A DNA stretch of 64,000 bases from an uncultured delta proteobacterium (GCA_963816145.1 CAWFJP010000018.1:64001-128000); one strand, 5' to 3'. Positions 29,010 to 62,594 are shown, numbered from the stretch's first letter. Notes: generated from the letters alone by a model not told the origin. Numbers and translations: made by a program.

Positions 29010-29110
29010 GCTTCAGCCAACAGATCCAACTGACATAATCTCGTTGCTGTTATCATGACATATTGACGTTGCTACGACACCGTTCATCAGAAAAGTAGCC
29101 TGCCCCCCCT
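29010..29110 (+). repeat. About 90-bp repeat, copy 1 (divergent RAYT-end-like unit followed by the AAGTAGCCTGYCCC motif)
   Basis: Aligns with 30313-30402. Confidence 0.65.
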
Positions 29111-29230
29111 TTCTTACCGACTCAGAGAGTTTAGAAATTTGACCGAGGACCAGCGGCGAGATGCCGCTGCCACTTTCTTGACACTTCACCTGCGAACGGA
29201 GGTCTTTGGAAAAACGATTCTCCCGCGCCG

Positions 29231-29497
29231 TCAAAAAATAACCGAGTCGCGCCGGAAATGCTCCGGCGGCACCAGGAAGACTTCGCTGTCGTTTTCGAGC
29301 CGAAATTTTCGCCCGCTTCTGGGGCAAAAAGTACTATGGCCGCGAATTGCCTCAACCTGCGCCGGTATCGATCGGCCGTGAAACAATTCGGCAATGCTTT
29401 GTTTGCGCTGGAGAACTTCTTCGATGTGCAGCCTCAAGAGCACCGGATGATCGCGGCCACAATCCTGGCAGTGCACTGAAATATCGTAGGCAGGCAT
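29231..29497 (-). CDS. Small Cys/His (putative zinc-binding) hypothetical protein
   Basis: CQDCGRDH...CPRSG; purine-rich upstream sequence. Confidence 0.65.
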   Translation of the reverse strand: MPAYDISVHCQDCGRDHPVLLRLHIEEVLQRKQSIAELFHGRSIPAQVEAIRGHSTFCPRSGRKFRLENDSEVFLVPPEHFRRDSVIF

Positions 29498-29862
29498 GGT
29501 ACTGTCTCTCTTCCACCGGACTCCTATTGCCGACTTCGTGGACCGTGCGAAAATAAGTTGAGTTCCCCGATGGCGCTAGAAGCGACAAAGTTATTTTTCT
29601 GCAACCGTTTATGAATAAACCTTCGAACGCCGGTGCATTTCTGTAGGAAGGACACTGCACCGCTGGTGCCGACATTTTTTCTGGAACCAAGCATGAATTT
29701 TCCCTCCCGGCGTTTATCCCCTGTGAATTCAACCAGTCACGGACCGGGTACAAGTGAAACAGAAGTGTGCAGGTCGTCGCGTTATTGCTGCCGCTAAAAC
29801 CTACGCAGCATACGTGCCAAAACAATATCTCGAACAGGAATAAAGTCAGCGACTGCCATCAC

Positions 29863-30093
29863 ATCCCCGTCGCGGCGCGTTTCTACGATCTGATATATCA
29901 CCCGGAAGAAACCGTTTTCCTGCGTTATGGCCGGAAGACCGGGCATCGCACCATGAACGGCAAAAACATGATCGACCGCCAGGCGGTCATCGCCTTCTGC
30001 CGCAGATTCTGCCGTCGGCAATTGCAGTCATTAGGCAAAGACACAGCCGCCACCCAGCGCGAAGTCGCCGAGGTCATGTTGGCGAATTGGTAA
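29863..30093 (+). pseudogene. Duplicated 3' end of aroE
   Basis: Direct repeat of 25791-26021; similarity continues about 45 bp past the stop. Confidence 0.9.
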
Positions 30094-30312
30094 CAGCGAG
30101 GAGATTCCGGGGGCTCACACGGCGCTCAACATCGCGTCTATCCCGGTCGTCAGCGGTGATTTTCGGCTTTCGACCCCGCGGATCATCACGCGGTGCGGCG
30201 ATCTGGGTCTATCCCACCCTGACTCCGCTAGCGCCGGCGCTTCCTTAATTCAATTTTATCCAGCTATTCAACGATGTCCGTTTCGCTCTCCGGTCCGTTT
30301 TCTGACTTGGAA

Positions 30313-30402
30313 GCTTCAGCTAACAGACCGATCTGACGTAGTCACGTTGCTGTTAATGTTACATATTCACGGTGCTATGACCCGGATAAGTAGCCTGTCC
30401 CC
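30313..30402 (+). repeat. About 90-bp repeat, copy 2
   Basis: gcttcagc...gttgctgtta...acatatt...gctatgacccgg...aagtagcctgtcccc. Confidence 0.65.
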
Positions 30403-30403
30403 T

Positions 30404-34406: not shown

Positions 34407-34443
34407 GAATCGCTTCTAGCCGCTCGATCCGGATCGGACCAAG

Positions 34444-35232
34444 CTATATTGCGGGATCTTCAACGGTTTCGTCCCAAACAAGAGCGTTTTCCGAGCTTAG
34501 AGCCGCCTTTTCACCTACGGACTTGCCCGCGTAAGCTGCCGCCGGTTCCCGCAGAACGTAACTTCCTTGCACTTCGATCAACTCGCGATGTCCGGCCTTG
34601 AAGCCACGCTGATTCTGGACGTTCTCGACAAACGATAGACTGCCCACCGCGATCGATTCCGACCACCGTTCATGACAAGCCGCCAAGCCGTTCTCGATCC
34701 CTCGCTCGATCCACTCACGGTGTGCTCTTTGAAAGTCCTGCAGATCCGAGAATCCACTCAGTTCGCTCAGGCTTCGCAAGTCGATGATTGCGTAACGCTT
34801 CGGCGGCTTTTGGATCTCAGCAAAACCGCTCTCCTTCCACTTCTCAGGGTGACTCACTACCCCGGCACGAACCATGTTCAAGTCAATGTAAACTAAGCAA
34901 CGATTGAGATGTTGGTCGGCTTCGACAGCGGTAGCATGGTAGCGGTCCTGCCAAAATGCCCCGTGGCGTTCTTTGCGCTCATTGTACTCTCGTGCCGTGC
35001 GACCGGCGATGAGCTGCATGCTCTCTGCGATGACGTTTTTGCCGGTATCTTTCACCAGTAAATGAATGTGATTCGATGTCACCATGTAGTCGAGCACGCA
35101 CAAACCAAAACGCTTCTTGGCTTCAAAAAGCCAGTGCAGGTAGCGGCGCCGATCACGCTCAAACTTGAGTAGAAATTCTCTTTGATGGGAGCGGTGTGTG
35201 ATATGCCAGATGTAACCTGGCAGAAAATAAAA
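34444..35232 (-). mobile_element. REP-associated tyrosine (Y1/HUH) transposase, near complete but with the first few codons replaced
   Basis: YFLPGYIWHITHR, HUH motif NHIHLL, FWQDRY, catalytic YIDLNMVRAG. Confidence 0.88.
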
Positions 35233-35300
35233 GCCACCGACAATTCGCTTGCGGCGCAGGATTGTCGTGAAGTAAAAGTCAGACCCCGTGCTTTCCCCGC
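35233..35300 (+). repeat. About 65-bp repeat ending AAAGTCAGACCCC (second copy 44871-44935, partial copy 43935-43966)
   Basis: gccacc..aattcgc...gattgtcgtgaagt(a/t)aaagtcagaccccgtgctttcccc. Confidence 0.75.
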
Positions 35301-35372
35301 CGTGCTTTCCCCGCCGCGCTTTCCCCTGGTCGGTGTGTGACGCCTGTGCAGCTAGCTGGCGGGCCGCGCTGT

Positions 35373-36161
35373 TCAGTCGACCACCGATCGATCGGCAACC
35401 AGCGAGCGCTGGAGCCACTGGAACATCCGCCATCCGACGGGGTCAAGCGCAAGTGTCGATGCCGCAGCCGCAGAGGCTTCGTCGGAGATCGGCCGCCCGT
35501 TCGGCGCTTTCACGTGGACCTCGGCCACCCGTTCGGCCATCACGAACCATCCAACCGATTCCTCCACCGACCGGCCGACCGTGAGCAGGCCGTGGTTGCG
35601 CAGGATGCAGAACTTCTTGTGGCCGAGCGCTGCGGCGATGCGCCTGCCGCCATCGATCGAAAGCACTTCAACTTCCTCATCGTCGAAGAGCGCCTGGTCG
35701 AACACGAAGGCACAGGCCTCCTGACTGAGCGCGCGGAACGGCTCGACGTTGGCCGACCATGGCGTACCGAAGGCGGTGTGGGTGTGAGCTGCGCTGACGA
35801 CGTCGGGACGGGCAGCGAGCAGCGGATGGTGGATGTTGTAGCCGGCCGTGTTGACGGCACCGGTGGCGTTGCCGTCGGCATCCTTCACCTCGCCACCGGG
35901 ACCGACCAGCACCAACTGGTGGACCGTCGCCTGGCTGAAAGGGACACCCCAGTCGAGCAGCCAAAAGTGATCGGTCAACTCAGGGTCACGGGCCGATATG
36001 TGGCCGTCGCCGAGCATCCCCCAGCGCATCGCGCCAAAGATGCGGTATCCAAGCGCACACATCCGCTTGCGGTGCGCCCGTTCGCCGGCAACCGAACGGA
36101 CCGTGCCGTAGGGCTCGACCCCGTCAAACGGTGGATAGGGACTCGTTGTCACGTCGCTCAT
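35373..36161 (-). CDS. Class II aldolase/adducin family protein
   Basis: GHISARDP, IH, AAHTH, LRNHGLLTVG. Confidence 0.9.
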   Translation of the reverse strand: MSDVTTSPYPPFDGVEPYGTVRSVAGERAHRKRMCALGYRIFGAMRWGMLGDGHISARDPELTDHFWLLDWGVPFSQATVHQLVLVGPGGEVKDADGNATGAVNTAGYNIHHPLLAARPDVVSAAHTHTAFGTPWSANVEPFRALSQEACAFVFDQALFDDEEVEVLSIDGGRRIAAALGHKKFCILRNHGLLTVGRSVEESVGWFVMAERVAEVHVKAPNGRPISDEASAAAASTLALDPVGWRMFQWLQRSLVADRSVVD

Positions 36162-36205
36162 GCTACGTCGCGCGATTTAATCGGGTGCAGTCTCGGCTTA
36201 CACTG

Positions 36206-36380
36206 AGTGAAACGGTTGAACATGTTTTTCTTAATATCGCCTCATGCCTGTGTGGTGCGCGCGGCATCGTTTTTCTTAGAGGTCGCTTTTTCGCTTCGAA
36301 ACGCTATCTCTAAGCTCTTAAACAACGCCTTTTAAGCCATCTTATATTGGCAAATCAAGAACTTGCTTGGTCCGACCCGG
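36206..36380 (+). repeat. About 175-bp repeat (second copy 38374-38558) ending in an IHF consensus plus GGTCCGACCCGG
   Basis: Direct alignment of the two copies; AATCAAGAACTTG matches WATCAANNNNTTR. Confidence 0.85.
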
Positions 36381-36582
36381 CGTCGGTCGCCTTTTGTCAC
36401 CCTTTTGGCTAGCGATAACTCTGGCCGGTCGGCTAAGCCGATTCTTACTGTGGCGAAAGCTCAGCGTCAAACTGAAGTCGATGATCGAAACGTCGCATTC
36501 AGAATGATCAAGATTAAAAGGCCTGGCCTCGGATCTTTCCAGATCTTTACCGGTCCGACGCGGAAGTTCAGCTTGAATCGTC

Positions 36583-36611
36583 TTGACCACAAGCTGTCTT
36601 GTATATACGAT
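36583..36611 (+). promoter_or_regulatory. Sigma70-type promoter for brnTA with an inverted-repeat operator
   Basis: TTGACC-17-TACGAT, 6 nt before ATG; ACAAG/CTTGT inverted repeat in the spacer. Confidence 0.65.
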
Positions 36612-36617
36612 TTGCCA

Positions 36618-36893
36618 ATGTTGTATCGGTGCGACGAACGCAAGCGGAGAGCCAATCTCAAGGCTCACAAGCTCGACTTTCGCGATGCACCCGAGGTGTT
36701 TGACGGCCTCACAGTTACTTACGAGGACGATCGATTCGACTATGGCGAGCAGCGCTACGTGACGTTAGGGTTTCTCAAAGGGATTGTCGTTTCCATCGTC
36801 CATACCGAAACCGAAAAACAAATTCGTATTATCTCTTTTAGAAAGGCGACACGAAATGAAGAAGCGTACCTCTTCAAAAGTCTCCAAAACTGA
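36618..36893 (+). CDS. brnT: BrnT family toxin
   Basis: DERKRRANLKAHKLDF, YGEQRYVTLG, IRIISFRKA. Confidence 0.9.
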   Translation: MLYRCDERKRRANLKAHKLDFRDAPEVFDGLTVTYEDDRFDYGEQRYVTLGFLKGIVVSIVHTETEKQIRIISFRKATRNEEAYLFKSLQN

Positions 36894-37134
36894 TTGGCAA
36901 GGACTACGGGCAATGAAGACATCTCAAATCAAGCTATCGAAAGAGCATCCGGAACTTGATCTCAAGCATGTCGCGCGGGCGATTGTTCGCAAGGGCCTGC
37001 AACCTATCCCGCCAAAGACGTCGATCGCGCTGCGGGTCGACGCCGACGTTGTCGAGTGGTTCAAATCCCAGGGACCCGGCTATCAAACGCGCATGAATGC
37101 TGTACTGCGAGCTTTTAAAGAAGCCTCAATTTAG
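36856..37134 (+). CDS. brnA: BrnA family antitoxin
   Basis: KTDW, LRVDADVVEWFK..GPGYQTRMNAVLR. Confidence 0.9.
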   Translation: MKKRTSSKVSKTDWQGLRAMKTSQIKLSKEHPELDLKHVARAIVRKGLQPIPPKTSIALRVDADVVEWFKSQGPGYQTRMNAVLRAFKEASI

Positions 37135-37362
37135 CAGAATCGCTCGCCCGCCTGGTTGCCGCCTTCGGCGAATCGACCCGAGTCGATACGAGTCGCCAAC
37201 CGCCGACGGATTATACGATATCGCGTGAATTTTGTTCGCGCCGCGGGCAATGCGTGCCGCCGCTAAAGTTTTGAGCGAGCTGTCCTCGCTGACAAGGACC
37301 TGACAGCCGCTCGCTTTTTCAACCAGGCTAAGGACCGTGCGGGTTACTTCTCGAAGTGTCAT
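37126..37362 (-). pseudogene. Truncated hypothetical gene (MTLREVTRTVL...)
   Basis: Its start lies inside the 190-bp repeat and it ends against brnA. Confidence 0.4.
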
Positions 37363-37541
37363 GGAGTGATACCATAGCATAAACGGATCAAGCACAAACC
37401 GCCCGCCGTCGGTATGAGACCACGTCATAAGATCGGGTACTGGCGCGAGCAGGCTCAGTGGAAATCGAATCGGCGAGGCAGGTTCATCGGTCGACTGATA
37501 CTTGAGGAGGGATAGTCAATAAAGCAAGGCCAGGCCCAATC
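37359..37541. repeat. 100-190 bp repeat family ending GGCCAGGCC(C)CAATC; copies at 37359-37541, 42257-42360 and 43566-43749
   Basis: Shared gcaggctcag.ggaaa.cgaa...ggtcgact.atacttgagga.ggatagtcaataaa. Confidence 0.85.
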
Positions 37542-37645
37542 ACGTAGCCTCCGTAGCCTGGCCCCCGAGCCTTAATCTGACAAGAGCGTTGCAATAAATC
37601 ATTGGGGTAGAATTTCGCCATGCCTATTGGCTATAATCAACCGCT

Positions 37646-37885
37646 ATGGAGGCTTCGATGGAAGTTTACCCGGGGATAACGATGAACTCGGAAGTGCGCT
37701 TTGGCAAGCCTTGTATCAAAGGCACAAGAATCGATGTTGCAACGGTACTCGGTAGATTTGCCGCAGGCGACAAGATCGAAGACATCCAAGAAGATTATCG
37801 GCTCACGCGAGACCAAGTCATGTCTGCGCTCGCTTATGCTACGCACGTTGCCGAGCATCTACCTCCCGCCGTCAAATCCGCATGA
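37646..37885 (+). CDS. DUF433 antitoxin
   Basis: GKPCIKGTRIDV, EDY.LT; TG-TATAAT just upstream. Confidence 0.9.
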   Translation: MEASMEVYPGITMNSEVRFGKPCIKGTRIDVATVLGRFAAGDKIEDIQEDYRLTRDQVMSALAYATHVAEHLPPAVKSA

Positions 37886-38241
37886 TCATCTTGCTGGATG
37901 AAAACTTCCCACTGCGATTCTATACCAGGCTGCAAAAAGAAGGTCTCGCGGTACAGCACATCCTGCTAACCGATCGCGGCATCGATGACAAGCAGATCAC
38001 CGCTCGGCTGATGCAGGAAGAGATGCTTTTCCTGACACAAGACGAAGACTTTGTCGAAGCTGCGCCCGACTGTAAGGCCAGCATCATCTGGTCTCGTGTG
38101 TCGCAATCGATGGCGATAGACCAACGGGTTGAAATCTGGCTTAACGCCGTGAGGCAGTTCTTTGCCAAACCGTGGAATGAAAACTTCTTTGAGTTATACG
38201 ACGACGGACAACTTCATCCCGTTGAGGTTGTAAAGAGATAG
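37882..38241 (+). CDS. DUF5615 PIN-like toxin
   Basis: ILLDENFP, G.DD, LTQDEDF; ATGA overlap with DUF433. Confidence 0.85.
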   Translation: MIILLDENFPLRFYTRLQKEGLAVQHILLTDRGIDDKQITARLMQEEMLFLTQDEDFVEAAPDCKASIIWSRVSQSMAIDQRVEIWLNAVRQFFAKPWNENFFELYDDGQLHPVEVVKR

Positions 38242-38373
38242 CGGTCTTCGCCGGGTCGGACCAACGACAAAAACCAAACCCACCAGGGATCGCGCCACCA
38301 GCTCGTCAGTGTTGGATTCAAAAGGTCTTGAACGGACCCCGGATTAGATTTGCGGGATTGCACGGCTAGAACG

Positions 38374-38558
38374 GAGTGAAACGGTTGAACTTGTTTTATC
38401 TCACTGTTGCCTCATGCCTCACGCCTAATTGGTGCACGTGGCAGCGGTTTTCTTAGAGATCGCTTTTTCGCTTCGAAAAGCTGTCTCTAAGCTCTTAAAC
38501 AAAGCCTTTTAAGCCAGCTTATATTGGCAAATCAAGAACTTGCCTCGGTCCGACCCGG
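38374..38558 (+). repeat. Second copy of the 175-bp RAYT-end-like repeat
   Basis: CTCTAAG at 38485, IHF consensus 38530-38542, core 38547-38558. Confidence 0.85.
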
Positions 38559-38595
38559 CATCGTCTACTCCGGCATCGTCTACTGCGATGGGCGT

Positions 38596-39615
38596 TCAGA
38601 TTTTGTAAAACCTCTTGGCATTTTCTCCCAGGATCAGCTTCTTGTGTTCATCGCTGATATCATGTCGGTGCTCGATTTCATCGATCTCGTGGCGAGCATC
38701 CTCCATCGGAATTTCATGAGGGAAATCGGACGCGAACATACACGGTTGTGGACCGATAAGATTCACGACACTGGACAGAGCCCTCTCATTTCCCTCACAG
38801 CCGACATAAAAATTACCACTGGTAAAGTAGTCAAGAACTGGCCTTTGGCAGTGAAGCTCGCCGTACTCGTGTTCCCTTTCGAGCCTGTCAACGATCATGG
38901 GAATCCAGCCGGTTCCTCCCTCCATAAACCCCACCCTCAAATTAGGAAACGCATCCCATACCCCATCCTGAATCATCCCTGTCATGGCAATCGCCAGAGG
39001 CATAGGCATCCCTAACGCTCGGGTTCCCGGAAATTTGGTGAAGGTGTTAAATCCGAGATCGCTGTAACTGCCGCCGTGGATGCCAACGGCGCAGTCCAAT
39101 TTTTGCGCTTCCTCGTAAATTGGCCAGAACTCCTTTGCGCTAAGGTGTCTCTTTAGGCCGTTGGAAGGAATGTAAGCGCCAACAAATCCAAGGTCATTTA
39201 CCGCCCGCCGAAGCTCTGCAACGGCACTGGGCGGGTCCTGCATTGGAATCAGAGCCATCGCCTTCAATCGTGGACTTTTTCTCAGATACGTTTCATGAAC
39301 GTAGTCGTTCCACGCTCTGGCGTATGCAACCGCCCATTCCGGAATTACCACGTGACCGTAAGCGAGCGCTGTGGTCGTGTAAAGAACAGTAGACTCTAAT
39401 CCGGTCTTGTCCAAATACTCCAGCCATTGCTCGGGACCGACGTTGAAATCAAATGTGCCTTTTTTTCGCAGCTGCGGAGTATGAAACTCATCTAGGGAAG
39501 GTAGTAATCTTCGCTCTGCGACGGTATCGGCGCTCCTCCAAGGTTCTTCCAGATACCCGATTAAGTCCGCTGCTCTCTCCATAATATGACCGTCAGCATC
39601 AACATAGTGTGGCAT
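38596..39615 (-). CDS. Amidohydrolase_2 family protein
   Basis: VDADGHI, GIHG, EGG.GW, ASDFPH, ILGENAKRFY. Confidence 0.9.
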   Translation of the reverse strand: MPHYVDADGHIMERAADLIGYLEEPWRSADTVAERRLLPSLDEFHTPQLRKKGTFDFNVGPEQWLEYLDKTGLESTVLYTTTALAYGHVVIPEWAVAYARAWNDYVHETYLRKSPRLKAMALIPMQDPPSAVAELRRAVNDLGFVGAYIPSNGLKRHLSAKEFWPIYEEAQKLDCAVGIHGGSYSDLGFNTFTKFPGTRALGMPMPLAIAMTGMIQDGVWDAFPNLRVGFMEGGTGWIPMIVDRLEREHEYGELHCQRPVLDYFTSGNFYVGCEGNERALSSVVNLIGPQPCMFASDFPHEIPMEDARHEIDEIEHRHDISDEHKKLILGENAKRFYKI

Positions 39616-52356: not shown

Positions 52357-54084
52357 CCTTTGATGTGCTCTTCTTGGCTTCTGAGGAAGTAGAAGGCGTA
52401 TGATGACATGAGTCTACCCTCAGCGGGCTTGATCGCGGCTAGACCGCGACCTATGCACATTCGCTGAGTTGCGAGATTCACTGGTCCTACAGGAGCGCGA
52501 ACCGAAATCAGAATGTTGCCAGCTTCCGCGAAGCGTTGAGGGTCCGTTGTCCAAGTCGTCGGAGCACCAATGAACATTTCGCCGAACTCAGTCTTGCCCT
52601 GATAAAAAGGAATTCCGATTCCGGTATCATTGTAGGACTCGCCGGGTGGTGACTGACCTGCTATCGACTTCAGCGACTTCGCCTAATTGAACGATTGGAT
52701 AAGCGTGTTGCTCTGGCCGCTCCCTCCCGATACCGCTCCCGCTGAGGTTGTAGTCGCCATTCGCGGCGATCTTTTCTTTCGGCACGATCAGGCCGCAAGT
52801 GCGGCTGGAGGTCGATCGGTGGACTTGGCGGCTGCGGAGGGCTGGAGGTAGGCGGCGAGTTCGGCTTGGACCTGCGGCAGGTCGTTCTTGTCGATGGCGC
52901 GGCGCTGGGCACCGAGGCCGAAGCCGTCGTTCTCGACCTTGAAGAAGGCGATGGTGTCGCGTCTGCTTGGCCAGCGACTTGTCGAGGATCAGGATGGAGG
53001 TCTTCACGCCGGAGTAGGGATTGAACACGCCCGCCGGGCAGCGAGACGACGGCGACGAGGTACTTCTCGACGAGCATCTTGCGCAGTTGCTTTGTAGGCG
53101 GTCTGGCTCTGGAAGATGATGCCCTCGGGCACGATGATGCCGGCGCGGCCGCTGGGCGTGAGGTGCTCGGCCATGTAGTCCACGAAGAGCACTTCGCTGC
53201 GCTTGGACTGGACCGAGAAGCGGTTGTGCGGCTTGATGCCGCCCTTCGGCGACATGAACGGCGGATTGGCGAGGATGACGTCGGCGTATTCGTTCCAGCG
53301 GTCCTGGCTGGTGAGCGTGTCGTACTCGTAGATGTGCGGATCGGTGAAGCCGTGCAGGTACAGGTTCACCAGCGACAGGCGCACCATGTCGGGCGAGATG
53401 TCGTAGCCCTTGAAGTTCTGCGCGCAGCCGGCCCTTGCTCGTCGGGCGTCAGCGTGCTGTGGCCCTTGGCGTCGGTGTTGGCCTTGAGGATGTGCTTGTA
53501 GGACGAGATCAGGAACCCGGCGGTGCCGCAGGCGGGGTCGAGCACGGTCTCGTTCTTCTTCGGGTCGACGACCGCGACGATGAAGTCGATGATGTGGCGC
53601 GGGGTGCGGAACTGCCCGGCGTCGCCCTGCGAGCCGAGCACGGAGAGCAGATACTCGAAGGCGTCGCCGAGGCGCTCGCGAGTGGTCGTAGCTGAACTCG
53701 TCGATGATCTTGAGGAAGGCCTTGAGCGTTTCGGGGTCGCGGTAGGGCAGATAGGCGTTCTTGAAGATGTCGCGGAAGAGCGGCGGGATGCCGGGGTTCT
53801 CCGGCATCTTGGCGATGCCTTCGGCGTAGAGGTCGAGCGTCTCGTGGCCGCCGAGCCCGGAGCGCATGAGCTTGGCCCAGCCGTAGCGGGCGAACTCGCC
53901 GGCGAAGAACTTGCGCTTGCCGCCGAGTTCCTCGGCCTCGGCGTCCATGTCGTCCATGAACTTGTAGATCAGCGCGATGGTGATCTGCTCGACCTGGCTC
54001 TTGGGGTCGGGCACCTTGCCGACGAGGATGTCGCGGGCGGTGTCGATGCGGCGTTTGGTGTCGGTGTCGAGCATGGGGTCTCCT

Positions 54085-56638
54085 TTAGGCGGCGAACTGG
54101 TTCAAGGAGACGTAGTCCTTGACGTATTCGGGGATGAGCGCGCGGTACTTCTCCGGCACGGCCCTGAAGTCGCGGGTGGAGAAGACCGGGTTGGTCGCCA
54201 GGTCGGTGAACTGCCTGCTCTCGATGATGTCGCGGACCCGGTCGCTGGTGACGTAGGCCTTGAAGTAGTTCTTGATGGCCGGGATGGCCGTCGGCCTCTT
54301 CGGGCTTGTAGTCGGCGACGAACTTGGCGAACTCCTCTTCCAGCAGTTCGTCCTTGGACTTGAAGCGCGGGATGAGGCCGAAGACCTTCTCCAGGATCTC
54401 GCGCAGCGTCAGGCGGCGGTCCACGGCGGCGGCCTTGCGCAGCTTGTCGAGGGTGTAGTACTCCTCGGGCTTGTCGAAGACTTCGCGGTTGACGTAGTCG
54501 ATGACGCGGTCCCACTGCCCGGCCTCGACGGCTGCGGCGATGGTCTCGTTCTCGCGCACGGTGTCCTCGAACTTCTCGAAGAACATGCGGTCGATCTTCA
54601 TGCCCTCGTAGCCGATCGTCTCTTCCTTGATCGAGGCGAGGATGTCGGCGCCGAGGTGCTCGTAGGTGCCGCCGACGACCACCGGGCCCGTCGCCGCCGC
54701 CGTCATCGCGGCCCTTGCCCTGGGGCCGGGGGAGCTTCAGCACTTCGTCGTAGTTGAACTCCTCCTCGAAGTATTCGCAGTTGGCGAAGAAGTCGAAGAG
54801 CTTGAAGGCGGTCTTCTGCGGCTGCTGCGACGCCGTCCTTGAGGCTGTCGTCGAAGAGCTGCTCGAGGAAGTTGTGCTTGCGGGTGCCGCGCCCCTTGAT
54901 CTGGATGAAGTCGGTCGGCGAGAAGATCGGGCGGAAGAGACCGAGGTTGAGGATGTCCGTGCAGTCGTAGCCGGTGGTCATCATGCCGACGGTGACGCAG
55001 ACGCGGGCCTTGCTGGTCTTGTAGGCGGGCGAGGAAGTTGGCCGAGCCGAGCAGGTTGTTGTTGGTGAAGTTGATGGTGAACTGCTGGGCGTCGGGAATC
55101 TGCGAGGTGACCTGCACGGCGAAGTCGGACTGGTACTTGCCGGGGAACATGCGGTCGGCCATCTGGTTGAGGATCTGCGCCAGCTTGGCGGCGTGGTTCT
55201 GGCTGACGGCGAAGATGATCGACTTGCCGATCTCGCCGCTGACCGGATCGCGCAGGGCGTTTTCGAGGAAGGTCTTGCAGAAGAGCTGGTTGGTGGCGTC
55301 GGCGAAGAAGCGCTTCTCGAACTCGCGCTGCTTGAAGGTCTCCTCGCTGGTCCTCGCCGGCGTCGTCCGTGAACGAGACGACGAAGCCCTCGTCGGAGAG
55401 CAGCTGCGGTGGTGATCTCGGTGCGGGCATCCACCACCGTCGGATTGATCAGGAAGCCGTCCTTCACGCCGTCGAGCAGCGAGTAGCGGAAGGTGGGCTG
55501 GCTGTTCTCGCAGCCGAAGGTGCGGTAGGTGTCCAGCAGCAGGCGGCGCTCGGCCTCGCGCGGGTCGCGGGTGGTCGGCTTCGGCTTTGTCGAAGCTGCT
55601 TGAGGTAGTCGCGCGGCGTGGCGGTGAGGCCGAGCTTGTAGCCGATGAAGTAGTCGAAGACGGCGCGGGCGTTGCCGCCGATGGAGCGGTGCGCTTCGTC
55701 GGAGATGACGAGATCGAAGTCGGTCGGCGAGAAGAGCTGCTGGTACTTGTTGTTGAAGAGCAGCGACTGCACGGTGGTGACGACGATCTCCGCGCGTCGC
55801 CAGTCGTCGCGGTTCTCCTTGTAGATGACCGTCTTGAAAGTCGTTCGTGAGAGCAGCGCGGCGAAGGCCTTCTTGGCCTGGTCTTCCAGTTCGAGGCGAT
55901 CCACCAGGAAGAGGACGCGCCGGGCGTTGCCGGTGCGGAGGAAGAGCTTGATGACGGCGGCGGCGGTGAGCGTCTTGCCGGTGCCGGTGGCCATCTCGAA
56001 CAGGAAGCGGTCCTTGCCGTCCTTGACCGCGCGCTGGAAGGCGTGGATCGGCCTTGAGCTGATAGGGCCGCAGAAAGCGCAGCTTGTTGGCCTCGATGTA
56101 GCCGGGGCGCTCGGCTTCGTTCCGCCACGCCGGCTTCGGATTGGTAGTTCGGGCGCTGGGTGAGGACGATGTAGTCGTCGCCGACCTGCTCCTCGATCAG
56201 GCGCTTCGGGTTGGGCGTGACCTTCTGGTAGCCGATGACCGAGTCGGGCGTCGGAAACGACGTGATGACGTAGGGGTTGCCGCGCTCGAGATCCCAGAAG
56301 TAGTGCAGGTTGCCGTTGGAGAGGATGACGAAGCGGCAGTTCTGGGAGCGGGCGTATTTGCGGGCCTGCTCCTTGCCGACGAGCGGGTTCTTGTCCTCGG
56401 CCTTGGCCTCAAGGACGATGAACGGGAAGCCCTTCGCGTCGAGAAGCAGAAAGTCGATGAAGCCCTTGCTCGTCTTCTCGAAGTTGTCGCCGAGCGCGTC
56501 GAGGTCGGTTGACTTGATCGTGACGCTGGGTTCAAGGCGGATGTTGGCGGGCGCGTCGCCTTCCGCGAAGAAACGCCAGCCAGCGGCTTCGAGCAGCTTG
56601 TTGATCTTGATGCGGGCGGTGGCTTCTTTTGCTGCCAT
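54085..56638 (-). pseudogene. hsdR: Type I restriction subunit R (EcoEI-like DEAH helicase), multiple frameshifts
   Basis: KEATARIKI, LEAK, MATGTGKT, DEAHRS, GLTATP, MMTTGYD, QIKGRGTR. Confidence 0.88.
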
Positions 56639-58197: not shown

Positions 58198-58500
58198 ATT
58201 TCCCCGTTTGCAGAGTCTGTTTCGGTCAGCTTGGAGTCTCCAGCGGCTGGCTTGGATCGTTCAAAGGTTCAACGGTTCAAAAGTTCAAGGTCAGATTCGG
58301 AAGAATACCGTTCCAATAATTCCGGTCGTTTCACCGGTTCCAGCGACTGCTTCGGATCGTTCAAGTGTTGAAGGACGGCTTCGGGCGGACTGGGGAGCAA
58401 AGAAGAAGGCGGAAGGACGGCGGTGATTCCGTTAAGGGTTCCCGTCGGCGGGCTCAGGGCCTGAGTTTATCGAAGGCAAGCGTTCAAGGATTTCCATCTC

Positions 58501-58728
58501 TCAGGCGGCGCCGTACTGACGGACTTCGACCTCGATCCCTGACCGGGCGGCCTCGGCTGCAGATTCTAGCAAGCTCGCGGTGATATCTCCGTCTACGTAC
58601 TCTTCACCGCAATTCGAGCAGATACTCGCGGGGACGCCTCTGAAAACTAGAGTGGCCCCCTCTTTATCCAAGGTGACTGTGACTTTGCCAGGCCGGGTCT
58701 CACCCTTTTTACAAATGACGCATTTCAT
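58501..58728 (-). CDS. YgiT-type/MqsA-like zinc finger protein
   Basis: MKCVIC, VPA.IC.NCGEEY. Confidence 0.9.
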   Translation of the reverse strand: MKCVICKKGETRPGKVTVTLDKEGATLVFRGVPASICSNCGEEYVDGDITASLLESAAEAARSGIEVEVRQYGAA

Positions 58729-59024
58729 GAGGTCTTTCTCCTTTTGAAATCAGCTTCCCAAACATCGGAATCGGGTACATAGGCCGTGATGATGACATGT
58801 TCCTTTTCGTCGAAGTTATCTGCCACGACGATGTGAAGGGGTCGATTGTTATGCCACCCAAGCAAGAGACGGCTTGGATAAGGGGTGTCATCGGGATAAT
58901 CTTCAATGATTTCTCCGGTGGCAATCACATACCGGACTTCCAGTTCGCTGATACTTCGTTGGTACATGCGCTGAATCGCGTGAACTCGAAATACCAACCG
59001 TTCAAAAACCACAACGACACCCAT
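58725..59024 (-). CDS. DUF4258 protein (putative toxin)
   Basis: HAIQRM..R.I, IEDYPDD.PYPS.L, PLHIV, ITAY.PD...W. Confidence 0.88.
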   Translation of the reverse strand: MGVVVVFERLVFRVHAIQRMYQRSISELEVRYVIATGEIIEDYPDDTPYPSRLLLGWHNNRPLHIVVADNFDEKEHVIITAYVPDSDVWEADFKRRKTS

Positions 59025-59395
59025 TAAATCAAATGACCGTTGCCTTGTAGCGACGCAAAATCTTTTTTCTTGAACTCCACTGACAAAGCTTATCTTACGC
59101 GAATCGAGATGGTGATGCCAAGCCTCAGCTCTCCGGATCGGACCCGCCTAACTCTAATCAAGAAACTGGCTCCGTTCCAATAGTTCCTGCCCTTCGATAC
59201 GGTCTTTGCGACCTACTCAGGACGAACGGAATTTTTTAATTGGGGGCCGTTCAAGGCGTTATTCGATCAAGGTCGTCCGAGCCGTTCCAGTGGTTCCAGT
59301 CGTTCCAGGGGTTCCAACGGTTTAACCTCGCGGGATCGTTCAAACGTTCAAGGTTCAAAAGTTCAACGACCGATTCGGAGCGCCGGATTAACGAC

Positions 59396-60148: not shown

Positions 60149-60275
60149 AGTTGGCGCGATTGGCGAATTAAAGAAAAACTCGCAGTACGAAAAAGTTAAG
60201 GTGTAACTCTAACAGACATCCAAGTTTGCCACGACGGGTTACCGTTTGCGACTGGCGCTCCAAGTGAAGCTGTCT

Positions 60276-60622
60276 TCAAGGCGAAGCCGTTAGCTTGCGC
60301 AAAAGGCCGTCGACCTTCGATTTTAGATTCGGAAGATCTCGCTCAATCGCATCCCACACGATGTTCGTATCGATCACAAAGTAGTCGTGGAAAAGGATAT
60401 GCCGCATACCAATAATCTCTGTCCATGGAATATCCGGCTCGTGATCTCGCACCTCGCGCGGCAAGGCGTATGCCGCCTCGCCAATAATTTGGCGATGGCG
60501 CCCGAACCAACTCTGGATTAGCTCGTCCTTTTCAAAAGCCTGCCGCCCGCGTGCGGCGTAGCGTGTTCGATGTTGGCGATCGCATCGAGGATGTCACGGA
60601 GGCGCTCCTTCGGGTCCCTCAC
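60276..60622 (-). pseudogene. HepT/DUF86 (HEPN) toxin, frameshift near 60565
   Basis: L.DILDAI, IIGEAA, IPW..IIGMRHILFHDY. Confidence 0.82.
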
Positions 60623-60909
60623 AAGGACTCCGCTTCTTTCAAGACCCGTTCGCGGATGCGCGGTTTAAGACCATGCTCGGTGACAACGTCGACATTTACT
60701 CCGAGCAAATCTCGTAGCTCCATCAGTAGCCCGCCCAGATCGAGAAGCGTGCGGCCAGGCGCCATATCCAGCAAAAAGTCCACATCGCTATCGGGCCTCG
60801 CGTCGCCGCGCGCCACCGAACCAAAAACCCGAATATTGCGGGCGCCATGCTTGGCAGCTATCGCGCAAATCTCGATCTTGTTCTTTCCTATAAGCGCGGC
60901 GATATCCAT
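60619..60909 (-). CDS. MNT nucleotidyltransferase antitoxin
   Basis: [20 protein letters not shown]. Confidence 0.9.
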
Positions 60910-61021
60910 CGATTCACCTTTCACAAGTCACGAGGCGATATTATCTTCTTTCAGCCCTGGTTTGCCAGCCCAACCGAGGGCCACGTTTTCGTATCAACGT
61001 CATTCGGGTCGGACCCGCCTA

Positions 61022-61200
61022 ACTCTAAGAAATCGTACCGTTTTCATCCCATACAACTGTGTTTTCGAGCCTTAGAGCGTCATTTTCACCGGCAAAATTG
61101 CCCTCGTAAGCAGCACTCGGTTCGCGTAGCAACACCGTTGGCTCGCCGCGTTCGATTGAGCGGTGCCTCGCTTTGAATCCCAGTTCGTTTTGCACTTGCT
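61022..61200 (-). pseudogene. Divergent 3' fragment of a RAYT transposase
   Basis: Reads ...VQNELG...AYEGNFAGENDALRLENTVVWDE, matching the C-terminus of 34444-35232; followed by the core motif. Confidence 0.75.
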
Positions 61201-61720
61201 CGACAAAAGATCCATCCCCAACTGCAATGGCTTCGCTCCAGTGAGCCGCGCGCGTGAGCTCACCCGCGAGCGCTTCTTCGATCCATCGCTGATGGACTCG
61301 TTGAAACTCTTTTACGTCGGTGAATCCGCAACATTGAACGTGTCAGGCTTTGCTACTTTGATTATGCGGCGTTTTCGTTCCACCGCGAGGAAACGTTCGG
61401 AAACAAGCAAATAAACAAAAGCCGACACGTTTCCCGTTTCCGCTTCTTTAATTTCGGTAGCTTGGAGCGTGGCTGAAACTGCAGAATCACCGATGCGGTA
61501 GGATCTGCGTGCGGTTTTGGGCTCAAGCCTAAGTATGACTTATTTACATTGGCATCGTTGGACAAGTGTTCGCCACCTCACCACCTATCATCCAACTCAG
61601 GATAATGGCGAAAGATCCCTTGCTGATTGAAGGGCAAGCGCCGTTCGGACGCGAGATGCACACTTGCAAACGTCTGGATTACCGCCAGTTAGTGTTCCTA
61701 ACTAACGGTCCACCGACTTT

Positions 61721-62155
61721 TTACCTGAGCGCTTTCCTCAAGATGCCGACCGCGTTGTCCGCGTCCATCGCGCTGTCGAAAGCCACGTAACTTACGGAGC
61801 GTCGCCCAAGCGCCGCCGCCGAAAGACCACGCAAATTGATCCCGGCGTCGGCGATGGCTTTGGTCATTTTCGCGCCAAGTCCCGCTTTGTCGGGGCCTTC
61901 AACCCGCACCGAATGGAGGCTATCGGTCGTGGCGAAGCCTGTCCCTTGGGCCGCGCTTTTCTGTTTTGCGCCTTTGATTGGGGTGACGAAAACGACCCCT
62001 GTGCCGGGTTTATCGGCGGCGCGGCGCGCGATTAGAAACTCAAGATTTGCGCCGGCATCACTCAAGGATTGTAACTTCTCGGCCAACCCTCCCGGACGAT
62101 CGGCGATTTCGCCTGCCCAAACGTCGACTTTCTTTACCGTATACGCCATGGTCAT
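61721..62155 (-). CDS. ACT-domain (tandem) protein
   Basis: DRPGGLA..L..L..AGANLE and D.AGLG......IADAGINL; RBS AAGGAGG. Confidence 0.88.
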   Translation of the reverse strand: MTMAYTVKKVDVWAGEIADRPGGLAEKLQSLSDAGANLEFLIARRAADKPGTGVVFVTPIKGAKQKSAAQGTGFATTDSLHSVRVEGPDKAGLGAKMTKAIADAGINLRGLSAAALGRRSVSYVAFDSAMDADNAVGILRKALR

Positions 62156-62594
62156 TCCTCCTTACTGTTTGGAACTTAAGACGTAAATGGGGTGGTAATA
62201 CATTCGCGCGCCGGTCGTCAAGCGCAATGCTATCGCATTCGGGTCGGACCCGCCTAAGTTTCGCAAGGCTAGCGTTCCAATGGTTCCAGTCGTTCCACAG
62301 GTTCCAGCGGTTGGGGTTCCTAGGATCGGTTCGAAGGCTCAACGACGATTCCGCAAGGCCACCGTTCCAAGTGTTCGAGACCTTCGATACGGTCTTTGCG
62401 ACCTACTCAGGGCGAACGGAATTTTTTAATTGGGGTCCGTTCAAGTCCTTACTCGATCAAGGTCGTCGGGGCCGTTCCAATGGTTCCAGCCGTTTCAATA
62501 GTTCCAATCCTTCCAGGGGTTCCAGCGGTTAGAACTCATGGGACATTGACAGCGTTCAAGCCAATGTCTTCACTTCGATCATGCGCGGCGATGT

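What the first reader, a model, noticed from the sequence alone, without database searches (positions are those of the whole stretch)
29010..62260. Integron-like cassette array built around Y1/HUH (RAYT) transposase ends, with no integrase
Seen: a 12-bp core GGTCCGA(C/T)CCG(G/A) occurs at 34429(-), 36369(+), 38251(-), 38547(+), 40947(-), 44791(+), 45238(+), 59133(-), 61004(-) and 62239(-), with a degenerate copy at 36552. Every copy is intergenic and at a module boundary, and I saw no full copy in the first 29 kb. Three copies directly follow the stop of a RAYT gene or fragment. Others directly precede unrelated 1-2 gene modules (BrnTA, DUF4258-YgiT, MNT-HEPN, ACT protein, SBP-amidohydrolase). 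Related cores (GCTAYGAC, GTCAGACCCC, TAGCCTGYCCC, CCAGGCCCC) mark other junctions. Established: RAYTs are single-strand HUH nucleases, and some TnpA(Y1) groups are flanked by short GGGGWSAS-type terminal motifs, but their cargo role is unclear. Inference: the motif is a cut/join site through which the enzyme captures, stacks and reshuffles gene cassettes, making a functional analogue of an integron.
Basis: partly seen in the sequence, partly recalled or inferred. Interest (0 to 1): 0.88.

Follow-up and report, generated by a model that had tools for sequence, protein, structure and literature searches.

The report
Tyrosine-transposon ends littering a defence island
The repeated 12-base motif is the outermost tip of both ends of a small tyrosine (HUH) transposase element of an already described kind, and its many broken copies sit between toxin-antitoxin and defence genes in a fast-changing island, which looks like a cassette array but shows no sign of integron-like capture.

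Summary
GGTCCGAYCCGR occurs 10 times between 34429 and 62250 (0.06 expected). The 7.8 Mb genome has 18 copies.

The motif is not a free-standing cassette site. Alignment with intact relatives shows it is the tip of both terminal inverted repeats of a ~1 kb Y1 transposase element. The left end runs CCGGGTCGGACCAAG, then ~105 nt, then ATG. The right end runs stop, then CTTGGTCCGACCC. This matches the published TIRtron/TIRYT kind (PMC3733652, PMC6006769).

The window holds one near-complete copy without the normal start codon, one 5'-truncated copy, one 3' scrap, four solo left ends, a 308-bp two-tipped miniature, and two tip-only remnants. All are co-oriented. They lie in a toxin-antitoxin/restriction island that begins just after a conserved amidohydrolase gene and differs almost entirely from the syntenic locus of a 92%-identical relative.

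Duplication and population breakpoints fall inside repeats, not at the motif. No integrase, attC-like site or tip-to-tip junction was found. End orientation follows GC skew, as expected for single-strand Y1 transposition.

Verdict: transposon-end debris. Integron-like capture is unsupported, and passenger carriage is not excluded.

The parts
27290..28945 (+). Conserved amidohydrolase gene. The variable island starts right after its stop codon.
   Evidence: Pfam Amidohydro_1/3. 89-92% nucleotide identity to G004 and G022 up to window 28955-28956, and none beyond.
34424..35340 (-). Copy A. It has the right end with tip motif (34429-34440), a Y1 transposase frame (longest ORF 34444-35433; conserved part from about residue 69), and a variant left end (GGGGTCTGAC tip, then three 14-nt GGGGAAAGCRCGGC repeats). 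CTG stands where relatives have ATG.
   Evidence: Pfam Y1_Tnp 8.3e-13. NCBIfam REP_Tyr_transpos 68.6 bits, below the cut-off of 80. Alignments. nhmmer RE hit 34430-34572.
35355..36187 (-). Class II aldolase module (gene 35373-36161). It is an old resident of the island, not cargo of the element.
   Evidence: Pfam Aldolase_II. 92.8% identical to G004:C6:582610-583442 with the same two boundaries and no transposon ends beside it there.
36188..36380 (-). Solo left end (tip motif 36369-36380 read on +). It has the 105-nt leader, ATG and about 5 codons of the transposase, then unrelated sequence.
   Evidence: Alignments. nhmmer LE hit 36252-36380, E 5.7e-35. Two further copies share the same inner breakpoint (38363-38563 and C3:3855-4063, 84-85%).
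36363..38241 (+). Two toxin-antitoxin pairs: BrnT/BrnA (36363-37134) and DUF433/DUF5615 (37646-38241).
   Evidence: Pfam hits.
38251..38558 (-). Miniature two-tipped derivative (308 bp). It has the tip motif at both ends in inverted orientation (38251-38262 and 38547-38558). Its right part is a solo left end (38322-38558).
   Evidence: LE hit 38431-38558, E 1.2e-35. A longer miniature (right end 209 nt + 38 nt + 38311 onward) stands in metagenome contigs of X1, X9 and X20.
38596..40720 (-). Amidohydrolase_2 gene and NMT1-type substrate-binding protein gene.
   Evidence: Pfam hits.
40942..41528 (-). Copy B. It has the right end with tip motif (40947-40958) and the transposase from residue 142 to the stop. 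The HUH motif region is missing.
   Evidence: 93.9% identical to copy A over 587 nt. tblastn aa 142-328. nhmmer RE hit 40948-41091.
41727..43412 (.). PIN-domain toxin genes (41727-42227, 42642-43055) and an 'Unstab_antitox' gene (43173-43412), with ~100-200-nt repeats of another family between them.
   Evidence: Pfam hits. Repeats D6/D7.
44778..45249 (-). Three stacked left-end remnants, all pointing the same way: a 25-nt left-end tip (44778-44802), a variant left-end scrap (44868-44936) and a left end (45124-45249).
   Evidence: (D15, D19).
50418..52356 (-). Unrelated, recently active DDE insertion sequence.
   Evidence: 99.9% identical copies on C14 and C11. Pfam DDE_Tnp_1, DDE_Tnp_1_assoc and a DruA-like N-terminus.
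53004..56638 (-). Restriction-modification gene remnants (N6_Mtase; HSDR_N).
   Evidence: Pfam hits.
58483..59321 (-). Block duplicated on contig C29. It holds the DUF4258/MqsA-like pair (58501-59024), a tip-only motif copy (59133-59144) and part of a ~250-nt island repeat.
   Evidence: 95.4% identity over 847 nt to C29:410487-411333. Pfam. Flanks.
61004..61327 (-). Right end with tip motif (61004-61015) and a C-terminal transposase scrap (aa 227-323, 52% identical to copy A).
   Evidence: nhmmer RE hit 61005-61138, E 4.9e-35.
62239..62250 (-). Tip-only remnant (about 20 nt of right-end tip), next to a ~250-nt island repeat and upstream of an ACT-domain gene (61721-62155).

Best explanation
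The motif is the tip of the terminal inverted repeats of a ~1 kb mobile element. That element encodes a RAYT-like Y1 (HUH) tyrosine transposase and is of the kind published as TIRtron/TIRYT. An intact element reads: left tip CCGGGTCGGACCAAG, a ~105-nt leader containing an imperfect palindrome (CTTAGAG...CTCTAAG), ATG, a transposase of about 260 aa, a stop codon, then the right tip CTTGGTCCGACCC(GR).

Shown here:
- Homology among dozens of copies in the genus stops exactly at these tips.
- The window carries at least 11 ends or end remnants, mostly without a transposase gene, and all point the same way.
- They sit in the intergenic gaps of a species-variable toxin-antitoxin/restriction island.

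Inferred:
- The elements entered by single-strand, replication-coupled Y1 transposition, which would explain the common orientation and its agreement with GC skew.
- They landed preferentially in this permissive island and then decayed by internal deletion and replacement. That left solo ends, two-tipped miniatures and tips.
- The many repeats, these ends among them, then serve as homology for ordinary recombination that shuffles the small gene modules.

The cassette-array look is thus a by-product, not a capture system.
For: (1) Ends defined by comparison. Ten upstream regions of transposase copies were aligned (nine from relatives plus the window's copy A). Seven relatives carry GTCGGACC with CGG/GGG immediately 5' of it. 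Three relatives have a variant (L002 AATCGGACC, L004 GTCG--CC, L008 TAG+GTCGGACC). The window's copy A has a different left end. The ATG lies about 118 nt in. Eleven of twelve right ends end in GGTC(C/G)GAC (L007 has GGTCCGCC), with no similarity beyond. Fifteen left ends align over about 135 nt.
(2) In genus-wide BLAST with two intact elements plus flanks, at least 10 listed matches start at query 779-783 and at least 20 end at 1766-1773. None runs past 1778. For the second element the limits are 847-858 and 1781.
(3) Profile search of the genome finds 12 left ends and 11 right ends, 11 of the 23 on C18. Seven of the 10 window motif copies sit at the tip of such a hit, and 3 are tip-only.
(4) Of the 18 genomic motif copies, 9 carry a long left- or right-end flank. 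Five are short tips, two of which are one duplicated block. Four lie in unrelated, apparently coding sequence.
(5) Two-tipped internally deleted derivatives recur: window 38251-38558; relatives L018 5514-5950, L019 7272-7536 and L020 1199-1765; and a metagenome form in 3 of 4 runs.
(6) Clusters of fragments of this transposase recur in relatives (G017, G024, G012, G018, G019, G043).
(7) Orientation. All 11 ends on C18 share one strand. For 22 of 23 ends (8 of 9 loci) the transposase-sense strand is the G-rich strand over +-50 kb. In relatives this holds for 4 of 6 loci. IS200/IS605 members insert with their active strand on the lagging-strand template (PMC5027513, passages).
(8) Island nature. 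BrnTA, DUF433/DUF5615, three PIN genes, MqsA-like/DUF4258, MNT/HEPN, NERD, an AbiEii scrap, restriction-modification remnants and an active IS are present. Against G004, only three blocks are shared across more than 36 kb.
(9) Published match. TIRYT genes are flanked by long TIRs whose families are 'moderately abundant' and often in dimers or clusters (PMC3733652, passages). Group 1 RAYT flanking 16-mers occur about 12 times per replicon (PMC5581495, passage).
Against: - No transposition event was seen. No empty site was found for either intact element tested, and no circle or tandem junction was found.
- The published TIR consensus GGGGWSAS is not matched exactly by the main tip (GGGTCGGA). 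The variant left tip GGGGTCTG fits 7 of 8 positions. The consensus is not clearly enriched in the region (6 against 3.06 expected).
- No Pfam HTH domain was detected in the C-terminal extension at E <= 0.01.
- The left-end palindrome has 12 predicted pairs but 0 with compensatory change.
- Random decay does not by itself explain why tips are so regularly kept, nor why three solo left ends share one inner breakpoint.
- Two structures have foreign genes lying between a right tip and a left tip: window 40942-44802, and L015 4182-5875 in G017. This is what passenger carriage would look like.
- The GC-skew test uses unplaced contigs, noisy skew and non-independent kin. One G000 locus (C14) and two relatives' loci (G018, G004) go the other way.
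Confidence: 0.7

Rival explanations
1. Passenger-carrying, non-autonomous TIRtrons. Any DNA lying between a right tip and an inverted left tip can be moved in trans by the transposase. Toxin-antitoxin and defence modules would then travel as cargo, and the island would be built partly by such hops.
For: - Two-tipped miniatures recur, so pairs of tips seem to be what is kept.
- In G017 (L015 4182-5875) a TIR-domain gene replaces the 3' two-thirds of the transposase between a 48-nt right end and a full left end.
- Window 40942-44802 has right end, truncated transposase, three toxin-antitoxin-type modules, then a left tip.
- Motif orientations alternate -,+,-,+,-,+ from 34429 to 44791.
Against: - No cargo unit was found twice with the same two tips. 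The second copy of the G017 block (10581-11887, 94.5%) lacks its own ends, and its left limit is not at a tip.
- The aldolase that seems to lie between tips (34429...36380) is an old island resident with identical boundaries in G004, where no ends flank it.
- The solo left end beside it is a copy of a pre-truncated unit present three times.
- Alternating orientation follows from all elements pointing one way, with right ends reading - and left ends reading +.
Confidence: 0.15
2. The motif is a site-specific cut-and-join site at which the transposase captures single cassettes and stacks them, as an integron does at attI/attC.
For: - The motif is intergenic and lies at the edges of small one- or two-gene modules.
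- Three copies lie 80-110 nt upstream of minus-strand modules (59133, 61004, 62239).
- The island content turns over quickly between species.
- HUH enzymes do cut and rejoin single strands at defined sites (established knowledge).
Against: - Seven of 10 copies carry 25-990 nt of the element's own end on one side. Sequence beyond the motif is unique.
- The motif lies inside, not at the edge of, the only duplicated module that holds it.
- Population joints are not at the motif.
- Genes run both ways and mostly form self-contained toxin-antitoxin pairs.
- No tip-to-tip or single-site circle signature was found in 31 assemblies.
- The resident transposase gene lacks the family's start and left end.
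Confidence: 0.07
3. A true integron cassette array that has lost its integrase (a cluster of attC sites lacking an integrase).
For: Three motif copies are preceded by GTTAGGC or CTTAGGC, which fits or nearly fits the GTTRRRY core of attC. The content is rich in toxin-antitoxin pairs, as in chromosomal integrons (recalled).
Against: - None of the 11 Phage_integrase matches in the genome lies on the 272-kb contig.
- A crude scan for paired RYYYAAC...GTTRRRY sites with inner complementarity found 0 in 29001-64000 and 0 in the control 1-29000.
- Genes, and the motif as read on the + strand, run both ways.
- The repeat is demonstrably the end of a Y1 element.
Confidence: 0.01
4. The near-palindrome GGTC-C-GACC is a protein-binding operator or recombination site used by the host, for example for regulation of neighbouring modules. 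On this view it is only secondarily associated with the transposase gene.
For: The core is a 9-bp palindrome, extended to 13 bp (CGGGTC-C-GACCCG) in three copies. Tips are retained when the rest of the element is lost.
Against: The conserved flank is always the element's own end. Copies outside islands are few. There is no consistent distance or orientation to neighbouring genes.
Confidence: 0.03

Closest known systems
TIRtrons / TIRYT (TIR-associated tyrosine transposases; Di Nocera et al. 2013, PMC3733652). Probably TnpAY1 subclass 2.1 of Quentin et al. 2018 (PMC6006769), equal to RAYT Group 1 of Bertels et al. 2017 (PMC5581495).
   Same: - A RAYT-like Y1 gene is flanked by long terminal inverted repeats instead of REP hairpins.
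- The TIRs form a moderately sized repeat family (23 ends here, against about 12 flanking 16-mers per replicon reported for Group 1), often in pairs or clusters.
- The protein (about 260 conserved residues) is longer than IS200 TnpA and has a C-terminal extension.
- Key motifs read by eye are NHIH, WQ and YIDLNM, against NHVH/NH[YF]H, W[EQ] and YIELNP/Y[IV]HLNP for subclass 2.1 (Table 1).
   Different: - The main tip GGGTCGGACC does not fit GGGGWSAS exactly.
- No HTH Pfam domain was detected in the tail.
- Here the ends are concentrated in a few variable islands, strictly co-oriented, mostly solo, and interleaved with toxin-antitoxin/defence modules. The passages I read do not describe this.
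REPtrons: RAYT genes flanked by REP/REPIN sequences.
   Same: A Y1/HUH transposase of the RAYT branch, flanked by inverted copies of a short repeat that also occurs elsewhere in the genome. Two-tipped miniatures resemble REPINs.
   Different: - There is no GTAG-tagged 20-40-nt hairpin at the tip.
- The family has tens of copies, not hundreds.
- The gene occurs as multiple decayed copies rather than one conserved single copy.
- The NCBIfam REP_Tyr_transpos score is 68.6, below the cut-off of 80.
IS200/IS605 family (IS608, ISDra2).
   Same: A Y1 HUH catalytic domain (Pfam Y1_Tnp). A subterminal imperfect palindrome in the left end. No target duplication is evident. Strand orientation tracks replication direction as judged by GC skew.
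   Different: - IS200/IS605 ends are not inverted repeats.
- The NCBIfam transpos_IS200 score is 28.1, below the cut-off of 55.
- There is no tnpB.
- The protein is longer.
Integrons and clusters of attC sites lacking an integrase.
   Same: An array-like run of short one- or two-gene modules, many of them toxin-antitoxin pairs, separated by repeats in a variable chromosomal locus.
   Different: No tyrosine-recombinase integrase on the contig. No attC-like sites in a crude scan. Genes run both ways. The repeats are transposon ends.
IS91/ISCR rolling-circle HUH elements (one-ended transposition; recalled).
   Same: One conserved end is retained with variable neighbouring DNA. HUH chemistry. A proposed role in gathering adjacent genes.
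   Different: Those enzymes are Y2-type, far larger, and have distinct ori and ter ends without inverted repeats. Here both ends are conserved and inverted.

Membership tests
TIRtron / TIRYT | Encodes a RAYT-like Y1 transposase with an HUH motif and a catalytic tyrosine. | tested here: met
   Pfam Y1_Tnp, E 8.3e-13, residues 76-184 of P0001. HIH in ...TSNHIHLLV... and Y in ...LVYIDLNMV... were read by eye.
TIRtron / TIRYT | The gene is flanked by terminal inverted repeats rather than REP stem-loops. | tested here: met
   Left tip GGGTCGGACCAAG and right tip CTTGGTCCGACCC, with a further shared GCTTAGAG block about 60 nt in. Homology across the genus stops at the tips.
TIRtron / TIRYT | The TIR carries the motif GGGGWSAS (seen in the majority, not all, of published cases). 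| tested here: inconclusive
   The main tip is CGGGTCGGAC. The variant left tip GGGGTCTG fits 7 of 8 positions. The consensus occurs 6 times in 29010-62260 against 3.06 expected.
TIRtron / TIRYT (subclass 2.1) | A C-terminal helix-turn-helix extension (Bac_DnaA_C, HTH_23 or HTH_28). | tested here: inconclusive
   An extension of about 140 residues follows the Y1 domain, but no Pfam family other than Y1_Tnp was found at E <= 0.01. No structure was predicted.
TIRtron / TIRYT | The TIRs form a repeat family elsewhere in the genome, as singles, dimers or groups. | tested here: met
   12 left ends and 11 right ends were found by nhmmer, clustered on C18, C2 and C31.
REPtron (RAYT with REP/REPIN) | Flanking GTAG- or CGTC-tagged palindromic REPs present in high copy number. 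| tested here: not met
   The tip has only a 4+1+4 palindrome and 18 exact copies. NCBIfam REP_Tyr_transpos is below its cut-off.
IS200/IS605 | Non-inverted ends with subterminal hairpins, and a short TnpA (about 150 aa). | tested here: not met
   The ends are inverted repeats. The NCBIfam transpos_IS200 score is 28.1 against a cut-off of 55. The conserved protein is about 260 aa.
Integron / cluster of attC sites | An IntI tyrosine recombinase next to the array. | tested here: not met
   There are 11 Phage_integrase matches in the genome and none on contig C18.
Integron / cluster of attC sites | attC sites (R''/L''...L'/R') between cassettes, all in one orientation. | tested here: not met
   A crude paired-core scan gave 0 candidates in 29001-64000 and 0 in 1-29000. 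Genes, and the motif as read on the + strand, run both ways. IntegronFinder's model was not available.
Active single-strand Y1 transposon | Excision as a circle with joined ends, and insertion polymorphism at exact tips. | tested here: inconclusive
   No abutted tips were found in 31 assemblies. No empty site was found. The contigs laid are short. Raw reads were not searchable for the junction.

The most novel reading that the evidence does not exclude
Pairs of inverted tips of this Y1 element are live cut-and-join sites, and whatever lies between them is moved in trans. Toxin-antitoxin and defence genes would then ride as passengers of non-autonomous TIRtrons. Defence islands in this genus would be assembled and reshuffled by a single-strand tyrosine transposase. 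That would be a transposon-based counterpart to cassette systems rather than an integron analogue.
Probability: 0.12. Interest if true: 0.7.

Novelty: new member of a known kind. Interest (0 to 1): 0.33.

Why it matters
TIRtrons were named in 2013 and have barely been studied since. A full-text search for 'TIRYT' found 3 papers. Their ends, mobility and biological effects are unknown.

This locus and its relatives give a clean definition of both ends of one family. They also show a range of derivatives: intact elements, two-tipped miniatures, gene-substituted forms and solo ends. The strand bias fits replication-coupled single-strand transposition. Together these make the family directly testable at the bench.

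If the passenger reading were true, it would add a Y1-transposase route for moving defence and toxin-antitoxin genes. As it stands, the finding mainly removes a false lead. The array is not an integron analogue. It is ordinary mobile-element debris in a variable island.

Tried and rejected
- Integron reading. No integrase on the contig. No attC-like pairs in a crude scan. Rfam at gathering thresholds found only a tRNA in the window.
- 'Cargo inside the element' for the aldolase. Rejected because G004 has the same aldolase block with identical limits and no ends beside it.
- 'Second subfamily of 3' scraps' (36296-36381, 38473-38558, 45164-45249). This was my first reading. It was rejected once relatives showed these are left ends in reverse orientation.
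- Empty-site search. BLAST of two intact elements with 0.8 kb flanks against 31 genomes of the genus found each flank separately in other genomes but never both adjacent.
- Tip-to-tip junction search. 0 of 31 genomes.
- Exact inverted repeats of 10 nt or more around three other Y1 paralogs of the genome (and around copy A): none. The method allows no mismatch, so this says little.
- Same-locus test in farther relatives. No left or right end was found in the stretches fetched next to the orthologous amidohydrolase gene in G043, G003, G012, G014, G018, G023 and G006. Up to 20 kb was fetched from each (7 kb for G023). Only G022 has a 30-nt left-tip scrap. The debris at this locus is therefore shared only by the closest kin.
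- Reads. Contigs of X1, X3, X9 and X20 gave no cover over 45764-48400. Several listed joints (34989->41509, 38373->36205, 36290->44778, 34389->40953) are most simply switches between paralogous copies. I draw nothing from either.
- The shares of 0.37-0.50 in 20 runs were not used as evidence of habitat.
- Covariation in the left-end palindrome: none.
- Supplementary files of PMC3733652 and PMC6006769 (TIRYT alignment, subclass tables) were closed and may bear on the subclass assignment.
- G005 is unpublished.

Full report
**Observation.** There are ten copies between 34429 and 62250 and none in the first 29 kb. Chance predicts 0.06 per window. The one-mismatch copy at 36552 is also there. In the whole 7.82 Mb assembly (31 contigs; the window is C18:64001-128000) there are 18 copies, 13 of them on C18. 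By my ORF and Pfam map all ten window copies lie between recognisable genes.

**What flanks the motif.** I oriented all 18 copies by the motif. Sequence 3' of it is unique in every case. Sequence 5' of it is conserved in groups.
- One group is the 3' end of a 329-codon frame (34444-35433, minus strand). This frame has a Pfam Y1_Tnp domain (E 8.3e-13). It scores below the curated cut-offs of both NCBIfam REP_Tyr_transpos (68.6 against 80) and transpos_IS200 (28.1 against 55).
- A second copy (40942-41528) is 93.9% identical over 587 nt but starts at residue 142.
- A third (61040-61327) is a 52%-identical C-terminal scrap.
- A second group of flanks (36194-36386, 38322-38563, 45164-45249, C3:3855-4105, C18:58023) I first took for a diverged 3' end.

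**Relatives resolve the anatomy.** The same transposase (57-71% identity for the full-length copies, up to about 87% over fragments) is found in 25 of 41 related genomes at E <= 1e-10. It often occurs as several fragments in one locus.

I aligned ten upstream regions (nine relatives plus copy A). Seven relatives carry GTCGGACC with CGG or GGG just 5' of it. Three relatives have a variant: L002 AATCGGACC, L004 GTCG--CC, and L008 TAG before GTCGGACC. About 105 nt further in lie ATGCCNCGNGC and the reading frame (MPRANR...).

Twelve downstream regions were also aligned. In eleven the gene's stop is followed by C(T/G)TGGTC(C/G)GACC, then nothing shared. L007 has GGTCCGCC.

The motif is therefore the tip of both ends, as a 13-nt inverted repeat GGGTCGGACCAAG / CTTGGTCCGACCC. 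A further shared block (GCTTAGAG) lies about 60 nt in. The 'second group' of window flanks is the left end read backwards, cut off about five codons into the gene.

The left end holds an imperfect palindrome, CTTAGAG...CTCTAAG, just before the ATG. It is conserved in 15 sequences, but none of its 12 predicted pairs shows a compensatory change.

Genus-wide BLAST used two intact elements plus flanks. It gives many partial matches that begin at query 779-783 or end at 1766-1773 (847-858 and 1781 for the second element). None runs on into the flank. The unit is about 0.93-1.0 kb.

**Inventory.** Profiles of the two ends find 12 left and 11 right ends in the genome (E <= 0.01). Eleven are on C18 between 58 and 134 kb. 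Others cluster on C2 (4) and C31 (3).

Seven of the ten window motif copies sit at the tip of such a hit:
- right ends at 34429, 40947 and 61004;
- left ends at 36369, 38547 and 45238;
- a 25-nt left tip at 44791.

Three copies are tip-only (38251, 59133, 62239). One of them, 38251, pairs with the left end at 38547 to form a 308-bp unit with the motif at both ends.

Of the 8 copies outside the window, 3 are long-flank ends (C3:3861, C18:58023, C18:133865). One (C29:410672) is a duplicate of the 59133 block. Four lie in unrelated, apparently coding sequence and are probably chance.

The only full-length gene (copy A) has a different left end. It has a GGGGTCTGAC tip preceded by three 14-nt repeats, CTG in place of the ATG, and a 10-nt insertion. 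No other copy of this subfamily exists in the genome. The other Y1 hits are 26% identical or less. So the resident population looks inactive.

**The setting.** The region is a toxin-antitoxin/defence island. It holds:
- BrnT/BrnA, DUF433/DUF5615, three PIN genes and an antitoxin;
- an AbiEii scrap, an MqsA-like/DUF4258 pair, NERD and MNT/HEPN;
- restriction-modification remnants;
- a DDE insertion sequence with 99.9% identical copies elsewhere.

Relative G004 is syntenic. G004:C6:573639-576411 matches window 26191-28955 (89%). The aldolase block 35355-36187 matches at 92.8%. Window-frame 64891-65723, which lies on contig C18 just past the 64 kb window, matches at 90%. Everything between differs. 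The island thus starts right after the stop of the amidohydrolase gene at 28945 and turns over quickly.

In the stretches fetched beside the orthologous gene in G043, G003, G012, G014, G018, G023 and G006 (up to 20 kb each, 7 kb for G023), no end of this element was found. G022 has a 30-nt scrap.

Genes between ends in relatives' clusters are varied: DinB, an ECF sigma factor, a catalase-like protein, an MBL hydrolase, APP1, isochorismatase, Usp and TIR-domain proteins.

**Tests of the cassette-capture idea.**
1. The aldolase lies between a right tip (34429) and a left tip (36380). In G004 it has the same limits with no ends beside it. The left end beside it is one of three copies sharing one inner breakpoint. 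It was therefore not made by capture in place.
2. The block 58483-59321 (a toxin-antitoxin pair plus a motif copy) is duplicated on C29 at 95.4%. The motif is internal, and the limits lie in other repeats.
3. Contigs of four soil and wetland metagenomes holding near-identical DNA show a joint 34632->38311 with 38 other letters. It appears in X1, X9 and X20, and as 41150->38311 in X3. This is an internally deleted element (right end 209 nt, left end 248 nt) whose breakpoints are not at the motif. A second joint, 29146->31473 (X3, X9, X20), involves other repeats. The remaining joints are most simply switches between paralogous copies.
4. No right tip abutting a left tip was found in 31 genomes.
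5. None of the 11 integrase-family hits is on the contig. A crude attC scan found nothing.

**What speaks for some role beyond debris.** Two-tipped internally deleted units recur: the window 308-bp unit; L018 (~440 bp), L019 (~265 bp) and L020 (~560 bp); and the metagenome form. In G017 a TIR-domain gene stands between a 48-nt right end and a transposase 5' scrap with a full left end (L015 4182-5875). The gene block is duplicated at 94.5%, but the second copy lacks those ends. Window 40942-44802 has a comparable layout. These fit passenger carriage but do not show it.

**Mechanistic hint.** All 11 ends on C18 point one way, as do the 4 on C2 and the 3 on C31. For 22 of 23 ends (8 of 9 loci) the transposase-sense strand is the G-rich strand over +-50 kb. 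In relatives this holds for 4 of 6 loci, and G004 is not independent of the window.

IS200/IS605 elements excise and insert with their active strand on the lagging-strand template (PMC5027513, passages). That this strand is the gene-sense strand is recalled. The bias is thus what single-strand Y1 transposition predicts. Ordinary gene-strand selection, noisy skew and unplaced contigs are caveats.

**Comparison with the literature.** Di Nocera et al. 2013 described RAYT-like genes flanked by long TIRs (TIRtrons, TIRYT). Many share GGGGWSAS, and their TIR families are moderately abundant and often in dimers or clusters (PMC3733652, passages). Quentin et al. 2018 equate most TIRYTs with TnpAY1 subclass 2.1, which has a C-terminal HTH tail (PMC6006769, sections 17 and 20). 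Bertels et al. 2017 report about 12 flanking 16-mers per replicon for Group 1 (PMC5581495, passage).

The present protein's motifs (NHIH, WQ, YIDLNM, read by eye), its length, its TIRs and its copy number fit that kind. The tip does not fit GGGGWSAS exactly, and no HTH domain was detected. A search for 'TIRYT' found 3 papers. A search combining Y1 transposase, gene cassette, integron and RAYT listed nothing describing such arrays (listing only).

**Verdict.** The motif is real and strongly non-random. It is the terminal inverted repeat tip of a TIRtron-type Y1 element whose decayed, co-oriented copies litter a variable toxin-antitoxin/defence island. The integron-like capture model is not supported. 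Passenger carriage between paired tips remains possible (about 0.12-0.15). The find is a new, well-defined member of a little-studied known kind.

Noticed in passing
window 30412-30453, 56850-57460, 58239-58390, 59270-59380, 62257-62612; genome-wide: Arrays of TGGAAC/TTGAAC hexamers at 9-nt spacing occur all over the genome (389 triple hits). One 48-nt form (GTTCAA... with a GCGCAGCG centre) is 92-96% conserved across nearly all genomes of the genus. It is inserted in the N-terminal coding part of G004's otherwise intact transposase copy. It looks like the genus's true high-copy small repeat. Its function and mover are unknown.
   Followed up: partly
window 44933-44980, 56961-57356, 59172-59317, 62362-62507; also C18:129746-129924, C1:2.7-6.2 kb, C29:409-414.6 kb: A ~250-nt repeat unit contains GAGTAGGTCGCAAAGACCGTATCGAAGGGC and a 7-bp hairpin (GAACGGA...TCCGTTC). 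It is confined to three islands (11 exact 16-mer copies) and is mostly co-oriented between small toxin-antitoxin modules. At 44936 a variant transposon left end joins it exactly before GAGTAG.
   Followed up: partly
window 35286-35340: A 14-nt tandem repeat (GGGGAAAGCRCGGC, three copies) lies at the variant left end of copy A. One unit fewer is seen in contigs of X3, X9 and X20 (table 4).
   Followed up: no
window 29146-31473: A 2.3-kb stretch holding an ATP-grasp gene and the second copy of a ~105-nt repeat (29002-29110 / 30305-30405) is skipped in contigs of X3, X9 and X20. TATAGG stands in its place, and the shorter side is only 21 letters.
   Followed up: no
window 31547-31686: A ~135-nt repeat has copies on C14, C3, C29, C17, C8 and C4 (83-93% identity). 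Many metagenome contigs break there (table 7). It is probably another miniature element.
   Followed up: no
window 50418-52356: A DDE insertion sequence has 99.9% identical copies on C14 and C11. Its larger frame joins a DruA-like N-terminal region to DDE_Tnp_1_assoc.
   Followed up: no
window 28770-28924; C30:104537-104626; C2:273361-273514; G004:C6:571565-571725 and 583649-583752: The last ~90-160 nt of the flanking amidohydrolase gene are repeated elsewhere. On C30 the copy abuts a degenerate left end of the Y1 element. In G004 one copy lies beside the aldolase block.
   Followed up: partly
L022 8278-10734 (G014:C5), L037, L038: A 2.46-kb repeat has three copies at 99.6-99.7% in G014. Two of them follow a left end cut at GGTC|CGA, in the centre of the tip palindrome. 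Those two share 100 nt of the left end, so they may be one event copied. Its 648-aa frame has InlB B-repeat (Flg_new_2) domains and no recognisable transposase domain.
   Followed up: partly
L015 4182-5875 and 10581-11887 (G017:C26): A TIR-domain (Thoeris ThsB-like) gene is fused behind a transposase 5' scrap and is present twice at 94.5% identity. One copy is framed by a right and a left end of the Y1 element.
   Followed up: partly
window 48000-56000: This stretch has strongly positive GC skew (up to +0.195) and higher G+C (to 0.64), unlike its surroundings. It coincides with the insertion sequence and the restriction-modification remnants, which fits recently acquired DNA.
   Followed up: no
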